Part shown: piece by piece, positions 54,470 through 62,355 of the stretch
Numbering within the stretch: the stretch's first letter is position 1
Layout of the letters: every line of letters starts with the position of its first letter
Origin: Burkholderiales bacterium
GTDB taxonomy: Bacteria > Pseudomonadota > Gammaproteobacteria > Burkholderiales > SG8-39
Reading direction: 5' to 3'
DNA length: 64,000 nucleotides
Assembly: GCA_014860445.1 (NCBI GenBank)
Contig: JACZJT010000048.1
Location: forward strand, 828 to 64,827
Program-made: the position numbers and the translations under genes
Notes under the pieces: model-generated
Seen by the model: the letters and a program-made list of their open reading frames with translations, nothing else
Databases searched by the model: none
What the model was told of the DNA's origin: nothing

Positions 54470-54508
54470 GCCGGGATGGCGGAATTGGTAGACGCACGGG
54501 ACTCAAAA
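54470..54508 (+). pseudogene. 5' half of host tRNA-Leu(CAA), broken at the end of the anticodon loop (attL)
   Basis: GCCGGGATGGCGGAATTGGTAGACGCACGGGACTCAAAA then CCCCTAATAG...; no variable arm, T-arm or CCA follows. Confidence 0.9.
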
Positions 54509-54647: not shown

Positions 54648-55952
54648 ATGCCAGAAGACCACCAAATGATGGGCGGGAAGCTCCACGTCTACAGGCGTGA
54701 GAACAGCAGTTGCTGGCAGTGCTCCACCTTTCTTGGTGGAAGGAACCATCGTAGAAGCACCAAGGAAGAATCCCTCTCCCTGGCCAAGGATATTGCCGAA
54801 GACTGGTATCTGGAACTGAAAGGCAAGTTCCGGGCAGGAGAGCTTAAGAACGGCAAGACCTTCAAATTCGCGGCCGACCAGTTCCGCCGCGAATACGAGA
54901 CGATCACCGCCGGAGAGCGGAACGCACAATATGTAGACGGCCATTGGAGACGGCTTAAAGTCCACCTCCTTCCCTTTTTCGGCGAGAAAGTCGTTTCAGA
55001 AATCACGCCGGGCCTAGTTCAAGAATATAGAGTCCATCGGGCAACGTCCCGCAAGCATCCCAAAACCGGCGAGCCGGTGCGGCCGGCTCGCTCAACTCTG
55101 CATCAAGAAATCGTAACGCTGCGCCACGTCCTCAATACGGCGCAGCGGCATGGGTGGCTTCCCTTTGTTCCCAATCTTTCTCCCCCGTACAGAGCCTCGG
55201 GGAAGATCGTTCACCGGGCCTGGTTCTCACCGGAAGAATACAAACAGCTATACGAGGGTACGCGGCAACGCGCCAGCAAACCACCGAAACCGCGGTGGAA
55301 ATGGGCCTGCGAGCAGCTGCATGACTTCACATTGTTCATGGTGAACACGGGCCTTCGGCCCGACGAAGCGTGGCGACTCGAGTACCGCGACGTTGAAATC
55401 GTCGATGATGAAGGCTCAGGCGAGACAATCCTGGAAATAAGTGTTCGGGGAAAACGCGGCGTCGGCTATTGCAAAAGCATGCCGGGCGCCGTGCATCCGT
55501 TTGAGCGTGTCCGCGACCGACCAAAACCCAACGACATGGGTCGCGGACAGCGAAGCGCCACAAAGGGCGATGGAAAATCCCGATCCAGCGAAAAAGCACC
55601 AACCGATTTGCTCTTCCCAAAACGGCATCGTGAACTATTCAACGAAATTCTGAGCGAAAAGAATCTCAAGAAAGACCGTGAAGGGAACGCACGCACGTTC
55701 TACAGTCTTCGACATACGTATATAAGCATGCGGCTCATGGAAGGAGCCGACATTTATCAGATTGCGAAAAACTGCCGCACCAGCGTCGAAATGATCGAAA
55801 AATTCTACGCGTCGCACATCAAGAACATGATCGACGCGTCTGCGGTTAACGTTCGGAAAACCCGGCCGAACGGCGGCTCTTCAAAGCGTACCGTGGACAC
55901 GAAACGCAAGAAACCCGCGCGGCACGACGGCGACCCGGAAGCACGCGATTAA
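54648..55952 (+). CDS. int: Tyrosine recombinase / phage-type integrase
   Basis: RBS GGAAGGAG; N-terminal arm-binding-like region; NTGLRPDE, VRGKRG, FYSLRHTY, AKNCRTSVEMIEKFY. Confidence 0.93.
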   Translation: MPEDHQMMGGKLHVYRRENSSCWQCSTFLGGRNHRRSTKEESLSLAKDIAEDWYLELKGKFRAGELKNGKTFKFAADQFRREYETITAGERNAQYVDGHWRRLKVHLLPFFGEKVVSEITPGLVQEYRVHRATSRKHPKTGEPVRPARSTLHQEIVTLRHVLNTAQRHGWLPFVPNLSPPYRASGKIVHRAWFSPEEYKQLYEGTRQRASKPPKPRWKWACEQLHDFTLFMVNTGLRPDEAWRLEYRDVEIVDDEGSGETILEISVRGKRGVGYCKSMPGAVHPFERVRDRPKPNDMGRGQRSATKGDGKSRSSEKAPTDLLFPKRHRELFNEILSEKNLKKDREGNARTFYSLRHTYISMRLMEGADIYQIAKNCRTSVEMIEKFYASHIKNMIDASAVNVRKTRPNGGSSKRTVDTKRKKPARHDGDPEARD

Positions 55953-55955
55953 GCC

Positions 55956-55984
55956 TTGGCGGCTGCAATTCGTAACGCTATAGT
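55956..55984 (+). promoter_or_regulatory. Sigma70-type promoter for the element tRNA-Leu(UAA)
   Basis: TTGGCG-N17-TATAGT, starting 3 bp after the integrase stop. Confidence 0.7.
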
Positions 55985-55999
55985 CGTTTGGACTGATAC

Positions 56000-56326
56000 G
56001 CGGACGTGGCGAAATTGGTAGACGCAACGGACTTAAGTAAATTGAGTGCCCTTGTCGGAAACGTAAGGTGCAGAACTGCTCAAATTCGGGGAACCCTGCA
56101 AAGGCAATCCCGAGCCAAGCCCCGCAAGGGGAAGGTGTAGAGACTAGACGGGCAGCGCCTAAACCCCACCTTGAATGCCGAGGCGGGGCACGGCGAAGGG
56201 ATAGTCCAGACCACAAACTTAGCCGAAGCGCCGATGGCGCGACGGCGAGGGCGGCGAAAGCCGTAGATGGTACGAAAATCCGTTGGCCGCAAGGCCATGG
56301 GGGTTCAAGTCCCCCCGCCCGCACCA
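56000..56326 (+). tRNA. tRNA-Leu(UAA) interrupted by a group I intron (exons 56000-56034 and 56275-56326)
   Basis: Spliced product GCGGACGTGGCGAAATTGGTAGACGCAACGGACTT/AAAATCCGTTGGCCGCAAGGCCATGGGGGTTCAAGTCCCCCCGCCCGCACCA folds as an 87-nt class II tRNA; one A5-C68 mismatch. Confidence 0.92.
56035..56274 (+). ncRNA. Group I self-splicing intron (IC3-like, 240 nt, no ORF)
   Basis: P1 ACUU/AA:UUGAGU with U-G wobble; P AAAUUCGGGGAA, Q AAUCCCGAGC, R GUAGAGACUAGA, S AAGGGAUAGUCC; GAAA-capped hairpin near the 3' end; terminal G. Confidence 0.93.
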
Positions 56327-56352
56327 GTCCCTCAAGCTCAACAAATAAGAAG

Positions 56353-56529
56353 GCAAAGAACGGTCGCGCCAGCGTCCAAGTTATCGAGAAATGCTATGCG
56401 TCGTAGATCAAGGACTTGATCGACGCATAAGCTATCAATGCTCGTAAGGATCGGTCGAACGACCGTCCCCCAAAAAGTGAAGCGAACGCAAAACGCAAGA
56501 AAACCGGGAACCCGGAAAAGCGGGTTTAG
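56353..56529 (+). pseudogene. Decayed 3' end of a paralogous integrase
   Basis: Reads AKNGRASVQVIEKCYAS*IKDLIDA*AINARK...KRKK versus the intact integrase AKNCRTSVEMIEKFYASHIKNMIDASAVNVRK...KRKK. Confidence 0.85.
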
Positions 56530-56542
56530 GCAAGCCTTTCTC

Positions 56543-56571
56543 TTGGCGGAAACACGTGCTGAGGCTATACT
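56543..56571 (+). promoter_or_regulatory. Sigma70-type promoter for the element tRNA-Leu(CAA)
   Basis: TTGGCG-N17-TATACT, same -35 hexamer as the UAA promoter. Confidence 0.7.
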
Positions 56572-56587
56572 CCCAACACTTCCAATT

Positions 56588-56907
56588 GCCCGGGTGGCGG
56601 AATTGGTAGACGCAGAGGACTCAAGTTAAATTGAGCCCCCTTGGAGAAATCCTTGGGGTGAAGCCCGTCAAACTCGGTGAAGGCCCAGGAAGAACATTCC
56701 GAGCTAATGCCGAGCCAAGCCCAAGATCGGAAGATCGAGGGAAGGTGTAGAGAGCAGACGGCGGGCACCTAAAGTCGAAAGGCTATGGTGAAGGCGTGCT
56801 CCAGACCACGAACTTTGTATCTTCGGAAGCAAGGGCGGCGAAAGCCGAAGTGGTAAGAAAATCCTCCGCCGAAAGGTGTGCCGGTTCGAGTCCGGCCTCG
56901 GGCACCA
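56588..56907 (+). tRNA. tRNA-Leu(CAA) interrupted by a group I intron (exons 56588-56622 and 56858-56907)
   Basis: Spliced product GCCCGGGTGGCGGAATTGGTAGACGCAGAGGACTC/AAAATCCTCCGCCGAAAGGTGTGCCGGTTCGAGTCCGGCCTCGGGCACCA, 85 nt; acceptor, anticodon and T stems pair. Confidence 0.92.
56623..56857 (+). ncRNA. Group I self-splicing intron (IC3-like, 235 nt, no ORF)
   Basis: P AAACUCGGUGAA, Q AAUGCCGAGC, R GUAGAGAGCAGA, S AAGGCGUGCUCC; CCUAA..UAUGG tetraloop receptor in P8; terminal G. Confidence 0.92.
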
Positions 56908-56911
56908 ATTC

Positions 56912-56946
56912 AAAAAAGCCGTTCTCAATCGAGGACGGCTTTTTTG
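56912..56946. terminator. Bidirectional Rho-independent terminator after the tRNA pair
   Basis: AAAAAAGCCGTTCTC-AATC-GAGGACGGCTTTTTT. Confidence 0.85.
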
Positions 56947-58253: not shown

Positions 58254-58688
58254 GGTCTCTCTCCGCTTTCTCTTCGGCCGCGACAATCGCGGACTTCATG
58301 CGGCTGTCGGAGCGCCGGCAGTTCCGGTGTCGCATCCGCTTCGGACCGAAACGGCAGAGAAGGAGCCCCCCCATGTTTCGCTTGGAAGGCATGAGGGCTT
58401 GCGGCGCCAAAGGACGCCGGTGCTAAAGCTGCATCACTGAAGGACGGGATTACGGCGGCAGGAAACGAAGGGAGGGACCAGGATAAGGTTCATGCAAGCG
58501 CTGCCTGCAAGAAGCCGACGACAACTGTTCGCCTTGGAAAGGGTTTAGTGAACGCTGCAAATAGGATGTAACCCGGTGCCGGTATGGGTATGGCAGAAAC
58601 TGGCAATCAGGTATGGCCTTTTGCGCCGTGGCGGATTACAGTGGACCGAAAATTCCGGGGCAGAATGGTATATGGATCGTTACTCACT

Positions 58689-59594
58689 ATGAGCCGTGAC
58701 TGGGAAACTACGTTTTCCAGCTGGGGAGCCGCGCCCGGAGCAACCGAACAGACAAAAGCTGAGAATGCGGAACGTGCCGTCCGCAAGGCCATCGACGCCA
58801 GCGCGAAACTAAACGACAAGAACATTGAGGTCTTTGCCCAGGGTTCCTACGCCAACCGCACCAATGTTCGCCAGGATAGCGACGTTGATATTTGCGTGCT
58901 CTATAAAGGCGCTTTCTTTCCTGACTACTCGATGAGCCAGGGATTGAGTAGTGACGTGCTTGGCCTCCCGGACGGTACCTACTTCTATGCGGACTTCAAA
59001 AACGATGTTGAAGCCGCCCTAGTTGCTTATTTCGGCGAAGGCACAGTGAATCGCGGGAGTAAAGCTTTCGACGTACACGCAAACACATACCGGATTGATG
59101 CCGATGTGGTGCCGTGCTTTCAGCTCAGGCGCTATATGGGTACGCTTCAAAATAATTATTGGATTACGCCTGAGGGAACCGAGATCCACCCGGATGACGG
59201 CGGCGTGATTCAGAACTGGCCCCGTCAGAACTACAAGAATGGTGTTGATAAAAATACTGCAACGGGCCAGCGTTTCAAGACGGTCGTGCGCATTCTGAAA
59301 CGGTTGCGCAATGAAATGACTGAAGCGGGACAAGCCTCTGCAAAGTCTATCCCTTCGTTCCTCATTGAATGTCTGGCCTGGAATGTACCGAAAGACGGAT
59401 TCGGCCACGATACTTTGACTGCAGATATCCGATACGCACTTGCGCACTTGTGGAATGAGACGCGCAGCGACGAAACCTGTTCCGAGTGGGGCGAGATCAA
59501 CGAACTAAAATATCTGTTTAGGGGACAGCCCTGGACCCGTGAACAGGTAAATGCATTCCTGCAAGCCGCATGGGATTACGTGGGGTTTGAATAG
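58689..59594 (+). CDS. CBASS cGAS/DncV-like nucleotidyltransferase, CdnE-like
   Basis: MSRDWETTF...AENAERAVR, QGSYANRTNVRQDSDVD, DADVVP, QNWP, SFLIECL, WGEINELKYLF; resembles Legionella CdnE as I remember it. Confidence 0.9.
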   Translation: MSRDWETTFSSWGAAPGATEQTKAENAERAVRKAIDASAKLNDKNIEVFAQGSYANRTNVRQDSDVDICVLYKGAFFPDYSMSQGLSSDVLGLPDGTYFYADFKNDVEAALVAYFGEGTVNRGSKAFDVHANTYRIDADVVPCFQLRRYMGTLQNNYWITPEGTEIHPDDGGVIQNWPRQNYKNGVDKNTATGQRFKTVVRILKRLRNEMTEAGQASAKSIPSFLIECLAWNVPKDGFGHDTLTADIRYALAHLWNETRSDETCSEWGEINELKYLFRGQPWTREQVNAFLQAAWDYVGFE

Positions 59595-59596
59595 CA

Positions 59597-60220
59597 ATGG
59601 CACCGCGATATATCAAGGCAATCATCTATCTGACCGTCGTGATATGGACGGGTGTCCTGTACGCCTATCAAGAACAAGTCCAATCGGAAACGCTGCGGCA
59701 TCTGTCGCTGGTTATTACGATTGTGCTTTACGTCGTGATGGCATTCGACCTCTGGGTCTGGAAACTGCCGTTTTTGCGTGGCTGGTTCGTAAAGAGACCC
59801 GTCATTGATGGAACATGGAAGGTTGAAATCCGCTCACTGTGGAAAGATCCCGCTACCGGTGCCGGAATACCACCTGTTGAAGGCTACATGGTTGTACGAC
59901 AGACGTTTTCCACCTTGAGCATGAGGCTGCTGACGGCTGAATCGCACTCCGAACTGGTCGGTACGGAAATCGTGTTCTCGATGGATGGGCTCTACTGTGT
60001 GAGTGGTGTATACCGGAACGAACCCCGTCTACAGGTTCGGGAAAAAAGCCCGATGCATTACGGTGCAGTGTGGCTGAGGGTTGTCGGTGAACCAACCCAG
60101 AAAATCACCGGCCACTACTGGACCGACCGCCAGACCATTGGCGAAATGGACCTCACCGACCGGCATGTCGGCAGGTTTCAGGACTTTGAATCTGCAAAAG
60201 CGCACTACGATAATGTTTGA
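59597..60220 (+). CDS. cap15: CBASS effector Cap15 (2TM + beta-barrel, S-2TMbeta)
   Basis: Two N-terminal TMs; RPVIDGTW, VRQT, TAESHS, YRNEP, HYG, GHYWTDR; 2 bp after the cyclase. Confidence 0.88.
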   Translation: MAPRYIKAIIYLTVVIWTGVLYAYQEQVQSETLRHLSLVITIVLYVVMAFDLWVWKLPFLRGWFVKRPVIDGTWKVEIRSLWKDPATGAGIPPVEGYMVVRQTFSTLSMRLLTAESHSELVGTEIVFSMDGLYCVSGVYRNEPRLQVREKSPMHYGAVWLRVVGEPTQKITGHYWTDRQTIGEMDLTDRHVGRFQDFESAKAHYDNV

Positions 60221-61334: not shown

Positions 61335-62204
61335 TCAGTGAGGTTTCCTCACCCATTCTTCAAGAGTCAGGGGAAGAAACATGGGAGCCTTACGGAAAAA
61401 GCTGTAATTTGGCGCAATTGTTTCGCTCGGATTTACGACGATGATCTTGTAGGAATAGCGCCTATCCGCCGGAACGCGCTTTCCCTCGTAGAATGCCGGC
61501 ATCCGCGTACTGTCAGTGTTATACCAATCCGCGTAGTTGAAAAGTGACTTCGCTTCCAGATCCGATGGGGGCATTGAGTAACCGATGAATACCAGCGTAT
61601 CTATCTCGGCTTGATTACGAAGAACGCTGAAAGCCTTCTTCCATCTTGGCGCCATAGGCACTTTTGTTGTTCTGTACGCAAATTTGGTATATGTCGGCCA
61701 AGCCAGCGTTTTCTCGCCGATTGCACCATGCAAGTGTATGACCCGCTCGCCCACGACAAGATCAAGTCTCTGCGCCGCCGCCTCCAAAAGTAAGTCGTAG
61801 TTAAATGTCAGAATGAAGTCGTGCTTCCAATCTACCCGGCGCATGAAATCCAGAATTGTCTTGCCCTCGATATCCCAATTTATGTCGCTGACGCAAGATT
61901 TAAGGTAGGTACGCAGCGCGCTTCGAATCTCTTTCTCTTCTTCTCGAAAGACATTCCTTCCAGGTCCTAGATATTCGGCCGAGAATTTTAGAGAAGAAAG
62001 AGTGGACATGAATAACTCAAAGCTCACTTCCCGCTGAGTATGAAAGTTTTGCTCTCGCAAATGATCAATCGTTGTCCGTGGTGGCCCCCCGCCCTTTTCC
62101 ACTGTGGCCTTAAGCAGAGGATTTAAGGTATCCAACATCTCCATATCGGTTGCAATGCCGCACGTCTTGGAAAAGCCAGCGCCGAGCACATAAATCGTAC
62201 CCAT
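61335..62204 (-). CDS. SIR2-like domain protein (putative NADase defence effector)
   Basis: VLGAGFS, LTFNYDLLLE, IHLHG, VFIGYS, IIVVNP. Confidence 0.82.
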   Translation of the reverse strand: MGTIYVLGAGFSKTCGIATDMEMLDTLNPLLKATVEKGGGPPRTTIDHLREQNFHTQREVSFELFMSTLSSLKFSAEYLGPGRNVFREEEKEIRSALRTYLKSCVSDINWDIEGKTILDFMRRVDWKHDFILTFNYDLLLEAAAQRLDLVVGERVIHLHGAIGEKTLAWPTYTKFAYRTTKVPMAPRWKKAFSVLRNQAEIDTLVFIGYSMPPSDLEAKSLFNYADWYNTDSTRMPAFYEGKRVPADRRYSYKIIVVNPSETIAPNYSFFRKAPMFLPLTLEEWVRKPH

Positions 62205-62355
62205 AGCTAGTCCCTTGGGTGATCGCTGGAGTATTGCCAGAGGGCCATATCCAGGTCCCGGACCGTGAGGCGATGCTTGGCAGCCACGGCGCGGTGAGCG
62301 AAGAACGCCGCGAAACAATCTGTCCATTTATCCATCGTAACGAATCCCTATCTAT

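What the first reader, a model, noticed from the sequence alone, without database searches (positions are those of the whole stretch)
56588..56907. Group I intron in tRNA-Leu(CAA) with a C-G pair, not U-G, at the 5' splice site
Seen: a 7-nt anticodon loop plus a terminal G force the splice points to GGACUC/ and G/AAAAUCC. P1 is then CUC/AA paired to UUGAG, so the last exon base C34 pairs Watson-Crick with G. The neighbouring UAA intron has the same UUGAG guide and the canonical U-G wobble. Known: U-G at this position is nearly invariant in group I introns, and C-G lowers reactivity and fidelity in the Tetrahymena ribozyme. The classic bacterial tRNA introns are in Leu(UAA), fMet, Ile(CAU) and Arg(CCU). 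The exon body looks like a true betaproteobacterial CAA isoacceptor, not a point mutant of the UAA gene. Inference: either a ribozyme adapted to a C-G site, slow or regulated splicing, or C34 editing or modification before splicing.
Basis: partly seen in the sequence, partly recalled or inferred. Interest (0 to 1): 0.78.

Follow-up and report, generated by a model that had tools for sequence, protein, structure and literature searches.

The report
Group I intron after C34 in tRNA-Leu(CAA)
A self-splicing-type intron really does interrupt a leucine tRNA gene with an unusual C-G pair at its cutting site, but this kind was already reported in 2020; new here is that the gene rides on a mobile island that broke the host's own copy of that tRNA.

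Summary
Observation confirmed. Window 56588-56907 is a tRNA-Leu(CAA) gene split after C34 by a 235-nt IC3-type group I intron (56623-56857). P1 pairs C56622 with G56633, a Watson-Crick pair where U.G is the rule. The kind is already in print: Williams 2020 (bioRxiv 10.1101/2020.01.27.920355) lists 72 'Leu.3Cg' introns in Proteobacteria and says their splicing needs testing.

What I add:
- I collected 20 C-type genes. Eighteen form one well-supported intron clade with strong helix covariation, so the fold is under selection.
- In 6 of 6 genomes checked, the C-type gene is the only tRNA-Leu(CAA) gene found.
- Only two intron positions separate C-type introns from their nearest U-type kin in both C lineages. 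They are the first P5 pair beside J4/5, which is G.U in 20 of 20 C-type introns. This is suggestive, not significant.
- The gene is cargo of an integrase island of at least 41 kb that split the host's intronless tRNA-Leu(CAA) in its anticodon loop. Fourteen of 14 related integrase loci show the same layout, with matching anticodons.

Splicing itself was not shown; no RNA data covered the intron.

Verdict: a new member of a known kind, in an unreported genomic setting.

The parts
54470..54508 (+). 5' half (nt 1-39) of the host's own intronless tRNA-Leu(CAA), cut in the anticodon loop. This is the left junction of the island; the repeat core is GGGACTCAAAA.
   Evidence: 100% match to nt 1-39 of the relatives' intact gene. 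AT-rich foreign DNA follows. The 3' half lies at C56:28985-29040. Flanks are syntenic in relatives.
54648..55952 (+). Tyrosine integrase of the island (434 aa).
   Evidence: PHROG_1 integrase, E 9.7e-28. Pfam Phage_integrase 22.4 bits, below its cut-off of 27.1. Homologues at 58-73% identity sit beside intron-bearing tRNA-Leu genes elsewhere.
55956..55984 (+). Promoter-like site TTGGCG-17-TATAGT, 16 nt before the UAA gene.
   Evidence: 2 sites found against 0.3 expected.
56000..56326 (+). tRNA-Leu(UAA) gene with a 240-nt group I intron (56035-56274). U56034.G56044 is the usual wobble.
56317..56523 (+). Decayed C-terminal remnant of a second integrase gene (two stops), just upstream of the CAA gene.
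   Evidence: tblastn 45% identity to integrase residues 361-433; translation.
56543..56571 (+). Promoter-like site TTGGCG-17-TATACT, 16 nt before the CAA gene.
56588..56622 (+). 5' exon of tRNA-Leu(CAA), ending in C34 (56622).
56623..56857 (+). Group I intron (IC3-like), 235 nt.
P1 56620-24/56631-35
P2 56637-45/56650-58
P3 56663-67,69/56761-66
P4 56673-79/56708-14
J4/5 A56680-81 opposite A56706-07
P5 from G56682.U56705
P6 56715-22/56739-45
P7 56750,52-55/56798-802
P8 56767-76/56781-89
P9.0 56805-09/56850-54
P9 56813-21/56826-34
P9.1 56836-39/56844-47
omega-G 56857
   Evidence: Rfam alignment; helices read from the sequence. Pair counts on 18 C-type homologues: 95.8% of cells paired, and 25 of 77 pairs changed on both sides.
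56858..56907 (+). 3' exon of tRNA-Leu(CAA), beginning A35 A36 and ending CCA.
56908..56944 (+). Terminator-like hairpin followed by a T run.
   Evidence: Read from the sequence; it matches the terminator ends of two Rfam models below threshold. The simple scan did not list it.

Best explanation
This is a working IC3-type group I intron of the already described 'Leu.3Cg' kind. It sits between C34 and A35 of a tRNA-Leu(CAA) gene.

The gene is not the host's original one. It is carried, with its own promoter-like site and terminator-like hairpin, just behind the integrase of an island of at least 41 kb. That island inserted into the anticodon loop of the host's intronless tRNA-Leu(CAA) and left it in two halves. 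The intron-bearing copy is therefore the replacement and the only CAA isoacceptor gene found.

The C at -1 is dictated by the anticodon the replacement must carry, an exon constraint. The intron has to cut at a C-G pair instead of U.G.

Shown: the anatomy, the island junctions, the recurrence of the layout, conservation and covariation of the fold, and the C in independent samples.

Inferred: that it splices, probably by the ordinary two-step guanosine mechanism with the anticodon stem holding the exons together. Also inferred: that the G.U pair at the P5 end of J4/5 helps dock a Watson-Crick splice-site pair.
For: Anatomy.

The class is in print.

The fold is under selection in the C-type clade:
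- 95.8% of 1321 cells are standard pairs.
- 25 of 77 pairs changed on both sides.
- 0 of 500 shuffles reach any of the five measures.
- Slid controls give 31-41% paired.
- P3, P7 and the J8/7 core are invariant and identical to U-type kin.

Persistence: 18 of 20 C-type introns form one clade (SH-aLRT 99) with 70-86% identity. It spans records titled Beta- and Gammaproteobacteria, including a 1.2-Mb endosymbiont.

Sole CAA gene: none other in G000 or in G441, G442, G443, G444 and G048.

Island:
- The native gene's 5' half is at window 54470-54508 and its 3' half at C56:28985-29040.
- In 4 relatives the two flanks adjoin one intact gene.

Recurrent layout:
- 14 of 14 loci with a full-length integrase homologue and upstream DNA have a tRNA-Leu 5' part upstream and an intron-bearing tRNA-Leu downstream with the same anticodon letter, 5 C and 9 U.
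- 8 of 9 inspected upstream copies are truncated in the anticodon loop.

Promoter-like sites lie 16 nt before each gene.

C at 56622 is kept in two other studies' contigs.
Against: - Splicing was not observed. The RNA runs laid (X18, X19) held only short conserved pieces from other organisms.
- From recalled Tetrahymena biochemistry, U.G to C-G slows the first step strongly.
- Rfam scores the intron below its gathering score, 36.0 against 50.
- tRNA-Leu(CAA) is dispensable in E. coli (recalled), because tRNA-Leu(UAA) can read UUG. Being the 'sole CAA gene' therefore does not prove need.
- In the window, the tRNA directly behind the integrase is UAA. The CAA gene follows an integrase remnant, so this island is a composite and its history is unclear.
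- L050 has an intact upstream tRNA.
- The island's two ends lie on different contigs, so its continuity is inferred from synteny only.
Confidence: 0.72

Rival explanations
1. The intron splices, but slowly or conditionally because of the C-G pair. The level of tRNA-Leu(CAA), and with it UUG decoding, would then be limited or regulated by splicing.
For: Recalled Tetrahymena work says C-G lowers first-step reactivity. Williams 2020 raises the same doubt. Alphaproteobacterial tRNA-Leu(CAA) genes avoid the problem by carrying the intron one base earlier and keeping U.G, in 15 loci. That hints that C-G has a cost.
Against: There is no sign of relaxed selection on the core. The C-type has persisted across many lineages and is the only CAA gene found in 6 of 6 genomes checked. 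No regulatory element was seen.
Confidence: 0.18
2. The gene is dead: the intron cannot cut at C-G and the locus is a decaying relic on an island.
For: An integrase remnant lies beside it. Rfam scores it below threshold. C-G is reported to inactivate the Tetrahymena intron, as cited.
Against: - Compensatory changes maintain all helices across 18 homologues.
- The catalytic core is invariant.
- The exons fold as a normal tRNA-Leu.
- A promoter-like site and a terminator-like hairpin are intact.
- The gene is retained in a 1.2-Mb endosymbiont genome as the only CAA gene found.
Confidence: 0.07
3. C34 is converted or modified in the precursor so that the pair behaves as a wobble at the moment of splicing.
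For: None from the calls.
Against: No C-to-U editing of bacterial tRNA position 34 is known to me (recalled). The convergent change in the intron suggests the RNA itself adjusted.
Confidence: 0.03

Closest known systems
'Leu.3Cg' introns of Williams 2020 (bioRxiv 10.1101/2020.01.27.920355; whole text read; Table 1 is an image and the supplements were not seen)
   Same: tRNA-Leu, intron at anticodon-loop position 3 (34/35), C at -1 paired with G in P1, G at omega, Proteobacteria.
   Different: Nothing in the intron type itself. The preprint does not describe an island setting, the disrupted host gene or changes near J4/5, and it leaves splicing untested.
Classical tRNA-Leu(UAA) group I intron (Leu.3Ug; cyanobacteria, plastids, some proteobacteria), subgroup IC3
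   Same: Same insertion site, same UUGAG-type guide, same core. The nearest relatives of the window's intron outside the C-type clade are UAA introns (79%, 74% and 71% identity over the whole gene). The C-type clade nests among U-type rows.
   Different: - C-G instead of U.G at the 5' splice site.
- The first P5 pair is G.U in 20 of 20 C-type introns. It is an N.C mismatch in 30 of 31 of the nearest U-type kin.
- The exons are of CAA type.
tRNA-Leu(CAA) with the intron after U33 (15 alphaproteobacterial loci)
   Same: Same tRNA species, related intron core, and at least one locus (L066) beside a homologous integrase.
   Different: The insertion site is one base earlier, so the conserved U.G wobble is kept (P1 GACU/GGUC) and C34 belongs to the 3' exon.
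Two fungal mitochondrial group I introns with C.G at the 5' splice site (Hur and Waring 1995, Nucleic Acids Res 23:4466; only the title was seen, in a reference list; the paper is not held)
   Same: Natural C.G exceptions in which, as I recall, the exon's coding need explains the C.
   Different: Protein-coding exons in organelles, and a different intron subgroup. The content is recalled, not read.
Integrative islands and phages that use the anticodon stem-loop of a tRNA gene as attB (recalled examples: phage HP1 in tRNA-Leu; the sublocation classes of Williams 2002)
   Same: A tyrosine integrase next to the junction, a short direct repeat covering the anticodon loop, and insertion into a tRNA-Leu gene.
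   Different: Known elements rebuild the tRNA by carrying its 3' part. Here neither junction rebuilds it, and a complete, intron-split copy is carried instead.

Membership tests
Group I intron (Rfam RF00028; subgroup IC3 of bacterial tRNA introns) | Score at or above the Rfam gathering threshold | tested here: not met
   36.0 bits against 50, E 6.2e-7; no hit at gathering level. Williams 2020 notes the Rfam seed holds no bacterial introns and used an 18-20 bit cut-off.
Group I intron (Rfam RF00028; subgroup IC3 of bacterial tRNA introns) | P1-P9 helices with the P3/P7 pseudoknot, kept by compensatory change | tested here: met
   77 pairs in 15 helices; 95.8% of cells paired; 25 pairs changed on both sides; 0 of 500 shuffles reach this. 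P3 and P7 themselves never vary, so they are neither supported nor contradicted by covariation.
Group I intron (Rfam RF00028; subgroup IC3 of bacterial tRNA introns) | G at the 3' end of the intron (omega-G) | tested here: met
   G56857. G ends all 20 C-type introns, but this was a selection criterion.
Group I intron (Rfam RF00028; subgroup IC3 of bacterial tRNA introns) | U.G wobble pair at the 5' splice site | tested here: not met
   C56622-G56633; CG in 18 of 18 clade members.
Group I intron (Rfam RF00028; subgroup IC3 of bacterial tRNA introns) | Self-splicing with guanosine | not testable with these tools
   No RNA data cover the intron.
Leu.3Cg class (Williams 2020) | tRNA-Leu; intron between loop positions 34 and 35; C at -1; G at omega; C-G pair in P1 | tested here: met
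Leu.3Cg class (Williams 2020) | Host in Proteobacteria | tested here: inconclusive
The nearest intron, L097 (86%), is titled Betaproteobacteria bacterium, and the other clade members are titled Beta- or Gammaproteobacteria or Pseudomonadota.
tRNA-targeting integrative island | Insertion relative to an uninterrupted locus in relatives, bounded by a direct repeat within the tRNA gene | tested here: met
   Flanks C3 below 55339 and C56 above 28983 adjoin one intact gene in L011, L017, L019 and L020. The repeat GGGACTCAAAA is at both junctions. The two ends are on different contigs.
tRNA-targeting integrative island | Tyrosine recombinase next to a junction | tested here: met
   PHROG_1 integrase E 9.7e-28. 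LRHT and YASH motifs read in the translation (sequence). Pfam is below its cut-off.
tRNA-targeting integrative island | The island restores the target tRNA by supplying the displaced part at a junction | tested here: not met
   ARAGORN finds no tRNA at the left junction of the window, nor in 8 of 9 related loci. The right junction has no 5' half before it.

The most novel reading that the evidence does not exclude
A family of tyrosine-integrase islands destroys the host's tRNA-Leu gene by inserting into its anticodon loop. Directly behind the integrase it carries a complete replacement tRNA-Leu of the same anticodon.

That replacement's anticodon loop is split by a group I intron. At the DNA level it therefore lacks the integrase's target and cannot be attacked by the island's own or a rival's integrase.

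When such islands retargeted from UAA to CAA genes, the replacement's anticodon had to become CAA. This forced the intron to cut at a C-G pair. The intron answered, possibly twice, by turning the mismatch next to the J4/5 adenosines into a G.U pair.
Probability: 0.3. Interest if true: 0.78.

Novelty: new member of a known kind. Interest (0 to 1): 0.5.

Why it matters
The U.G wobble at the 5' splice site is among the most conserved features of group I introns. A natural, long-lived lineage that cuts at C-G offers a way to ask what the wobble is really needed for. The comparison here points to one specific pair, G56682.U56705 beside J4/5, to mutate.

Separately, the recurrent layout is a possible answer to why group I introns sit in bacterial tRNA anticodon loops at all. 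That layout is broken host tRNA, then integrase, then an intron-split replacement tRNA. The intron may protect the gene from site-specific recombinases that use that loop as a landing site. An analogous idea was proposed for archaeal tRNA introns (recalled: Randau and Söll 2008).

My two library searches on this found no paper describing this layout. The library lacks most subscription journals.

Tried and rejected
- RNA evidence for splicing. One run search (the first try did not complete) and one lay. The RNA runs X18 and X19 held only short conserved pieces from other organisms. The 'joints' at 56613-56878 carry other letters between the sides and are other organisms' intronless tRNA-Leu genes, not spliced product. 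No conclusion on expression or splicing.
- ARAGORN without introns and Rfam at gathering level find nothing in the window.
- A shifted splice site that would restore a U.G pair is rejected. U33 pairs with A56634, and there is no C after omega-G to supply position 34.
- Recent duplication of the neighbouring UAA gene followed by a U34C mutation is rejected. The two genes are 66% alike and lie in different parts of the tree.
- 'Two independent origins of C' as a firm claim is weakened. The best tree needs 2 changes and starred branches force 2. However, the AU test does not reject one clade of all 20 (p 0.218, lnL 38 lower).
- G.U at the first P5 pair as a marker unique to C-type is rejected. 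58 of 164 U-type introns also have it. The sign test on 2 independent pairs cannot reach significance.
- Viral contigs: 0 of 15 C-pattern hits passed as Leu.3Cg.
- L039 looked C-type at its 5' junction but failed my 3' criteria and was dropped.
- 47 of the 79 genome hits were not tRNA-Leu(CAA) by my criteria. They were other tRNAs or had no ARAGORN call, and I did not follow them up.
- Complex prediction and the structure tools are not relevant to an RNA.

Full report
**1. The observation**

ARAGORN with introns allowed, run on the laid genome, calls two split leucine tRNA genes in the window:
- tRNA-Leu(taa) i(36,240) at window 56000-56326.

Without the intron option it finds nothing.

The sequence gives these parts for the CAA gene:
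- 5' exon 56588-56622, ending GGACUC.
- Intron 56623-56857, ending in G.
- 3' exon from 56858, beginning AAAAUCC. The loop is CUCAAAA and the anticodon CAA.

P1 is C56620-U-C-A-A56624 against U56631-U-G-A-G56635, so C34 (56622) pairs with G56633. In the neighbouring gene the same guide UUGAG (56042-56046) makes U56034.G56044. No shifted register restores a wobble: U33 pairs with A, and no C follows the terminal G.

Rfam's group I model matches both introns below its gathering score. The CAA intron scores 36.0 bits (E 6.2e-7) and the UAA intron 47.1 bits, against a threshold of 50. Nothing is reported at gathering level.

Contigs of roughly 94-97% similar strains from two other bioreactor metagenome studies span the junction. 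No other letter is listed at 56622.

**2. It is already in print**

A full-text search led to Williams 2020, bioRxiv 10.1101/2020.01.27.920355, which I read in full. Its Table 1 is an image and its supplements were not seen. The preprint:
- maps 5292 intron-split bacterial tRNA genes;
- adds that the ability to splice 'needs testing'.

A search for papers citing it by title words found none in the library. Natural C.G exceptions in two other group I introns are the subject of Hur and Waring 1995. I saw only the title, in a reference list, and the paper is not held.

**3. Relatives**

*Close relatives.* In 40 relatives' genomes:
- 0 of 22 same-genus genomes have the split gene; they have intronless CAA genes.
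- Three genomes of the same order have full-length matches (79%, 74% and 71%), all with UAA anticodons.

*Class level.* Across 399 further genomes of the class, 5 had intron matches. Only two candidates per genome were scored, so this is a floor. Two of the five are CAA and three UAA.

*Wider pattern scans.* One pattern scan of 185,579 species' genomes for ACTCRA...GAGCCAAG...GGTGTAGAGA gave 79 loci. By strict criteria:
- 17 are tRNA-Leu(CAA) split after C34 with C-G in P1. Their record titles name Beta- and Gammaproteobacteria, including Solimonas soli, Mycetohabitans endofungorum and the 1.2-Mb Candidatus Vallotia cooleyia.
- 15 are alphaproteobacterial tRNA-Leu(CAA) genes with the intron one base earlier, after U33. 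These keep a U.G wobble.
- The other 47 were not tRNA-Leu(CAA) by my criteria and were not followed up.

The matching U pattern in metagenomes and viral contigs, together with the genome-search loci, gave 163 U-type genes passing the criteria, or 164 with the window's own UAA gene.

All of this is biased towards introns that carry the two exact core motifs.

**4. Is the C-type intron alive?**

An intron-only tree of 184 rows (IQ-TREE, quick search) shows:
- 18 of the 20 C-type rows fall in one clade (SH-aLRT 99).
- That clade nests in a 38-row clade with 20 U-type rows.
- The other two C-type rows (L050 and L103, identical to each other) lie elsewhere.

The best tree needs two changes of the label. 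The AU test does not reject a single clade of all 20 (p 0.218), so two origins are favoured but not proven.

On the 18-row clade I counted a hand-drawn P1-P9.1 structure with the P3/P7 pseudoknot:
- 95.8% of 1321 cells are standard pairs.
- 25 of 77 pairs changed on both sides.
- 0 of 500 shuffles reach any of the five measures.
- Slid controls give 31-41% paired.
- P2, P5, P6a, P8, P9 and P9.0 covary.
- P3, P7 and the joining strands are invariant and identical to those of U-type kin.

A dead intron would not keep this.

In G000 and in five other genomes carrying a C-type gene, no other tRNA-Leu(CAA) gene was found by pattern or BLAST. This does not prove need, because tRNA-Leu(UAA) can read UUG (recalled). 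Retention in a reduced endosymbiont genome nonetheless argues for function.

Each of the window's two genes has a promoter-like TTGGCG-17-TATAGT or TATACT site 16 nt upstream: 2 found against 0.3 expected. The CAA gene is followed by a terminator-like hairpin.

**5. A change next to the wobble receptor**

I compared each C lineage with its nearest U-type kin, column by column. Exactly three columns separate C from U in both lineages:
- the -1 base itself;
- window 56682, which is G in 20 of 20 C-type rows and A, C or U in 30 of 31 U-type kin;
- window 56705, which is U in 20 of 20 C-type rows and C in 30 of 31 U-type kin.

The last two positions form the first pair of P5. They lie directly beside the tandem adenosines A56680-81 and A56706-07 of J4/5, the region that docks the splice-site pair in studied introns (recalled). 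So the C-type has G.U where its kin have a mismatch.

Against over-reading this:
- 58 of 164 U-type introns in another part of the tree also have G.U.
- There are at most two independent events, so no test can be significant.

It is a candidate adaptation that gives the bench experiment a precise target.

**6. The setting: an island that broke the host's gene**

*The broken native gene.*
- Window 54470-54508 is the first 39 nt of the genus-typical intronless tRNA-Leu(CAA), 100% identical to the relatives' gene. It ends in the anticodon loop and is followed by AT-rich DNA.
- The missing 3' half lies at C56:28985-29040, again preceded by AT-rich DNA.
- Both junctions share GGGACTCAAAA.
- In four relatives the two flanks adjoin one intact gene.

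At least 41 kb has therefore been inserted: C3 from 55340 to its end, plus C56:1-28982. Neither junction rebuilds a tRNA.

*Order of features in the inserted DNA.*
- An integrase at 54648-55952 (PHROG_1, E 9.7e-28; Pfam below cut-off).
- The UAA intron gene.
- A decayed integrase C-terminus with two stops at 56317-56523.
- The CAA intron gene.
- A CD-NTase/Cap15 pair and a SIR2/AbiH-like gene.

*The layout recurs.* Homologues of the integrase (58-73% identity) lie just upstream of intron-bearing tRNA-Leu genes in many fetched loci.
- In 14 of 14 loci with a full-length homologue and upstream DNA, a tRNA-Leu 5' part lies within 350 nt upstream of the integrase.
- In all 14 it has the same anticodon letter as the intron-bearing gene downstream, 5 C and 9 U.
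- Of 9 inspected, 8 are truncated in the anticodon loop and one (L050) is intact.

The window is a composite. Its fragment is CAA; the first gene behind the integrase is UAA, and the CAA gene follows the integrase remnant.

**7. Reading**

The simplest account has four steps:
- These islands destroy the tRNA-Leu gene they land in and carry a replacement.
- The replacement must have the anticodon of the gene destroyed.
- For CAA targets, an intron placed at 34/35 must therefore live with C at -1.
- The alphaproteobacterial relatives solved the same problem by having the intron at 33/34.

That the replacement is intron-split, rather than plain, may be no accident. The intron separates the two arms of the anticodon stem-loop that the integrase uses as its site, which would make the island's own tRNA immune to it. 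This last step is inference only. My searches found no paper describing such a layout.

**8. Verdict**

- The kind is known from a 2020 preprint.
- Function is supported by comparative evidence but not shown.
- The J4/5-adjacent change and the island setting are the new leads.

Noticed in passing
window 54470-54508 and G000 C56:28985-29040: The host's own intronless tRNA-Leu(CAA) is split in the anticodon loop by an insertion of at least 41 kb. The 3' half also lacks one G of the acceptor strand compared with relatives (CTCCCGCACCA against CTCCCGGCACCA).
   Followed up: yes
window 58584-60220 and 61335-62327: The island carries a CBASS-like pair: a SMODS/nucleotidyltransferase protein followed by a Cap15-type receptor protein (55.9 bits). 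It also carries a weak SIR2_2/AbiH-like gene, so it looks like a defence island.
   Followed up: partly
window 56317-56523: A decayed integrase C-terminus with two stops lies between the two intron-bearing tRNA genes. This suggests two 'integrase plus intron-tRNA' modules were fused.
   Followed up: partly
L023, L025, L035, L041, L042, L048, L049, L054, L055, L057, L059, L066, L079, L080, L082: Fifteen alphaproteobacterial tRNA-Leu(CAA) genes carry the intron after U33, with P1 GACU/GGUC and a normal U.G wobble. ARAGORN miscalls several of them as Ser or Lys.
   Followed up: partly
G441 (record titled Candidatus Vallotia cooleyia): C1:456581-456898 and C2:13017-13368: A 1.2-Mb endosymbiont genome keeps both an intron-bearing tRNA-Leu(CAA) and an intron-bearing tRNA-Leu(UAA) with a 268-nt intron. 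The UAA gene is on a 66-kb second contig.
   Followed up: partly
G000 C29:51345-58615: The genome's intronless tRNA-Leu(UAA) lies about 7 kb after the Gly-Cys tRNA pair. In relatives (L009, L012) it follows them within about 100 nt, so something may be inserted there too.
   Followed up: no
L022, L024, L036, L038, L046, L060, L071, L083, L087, L089, L093, L095 (records titled Pyrinomonadaceae or Acidobacteria): A dozen acidobacterial loci match the intron core pattern after ...TCACACTC, but ARAGORN calls no split tRNA there. The host gene of these introns was not identified.
   Followed up: no
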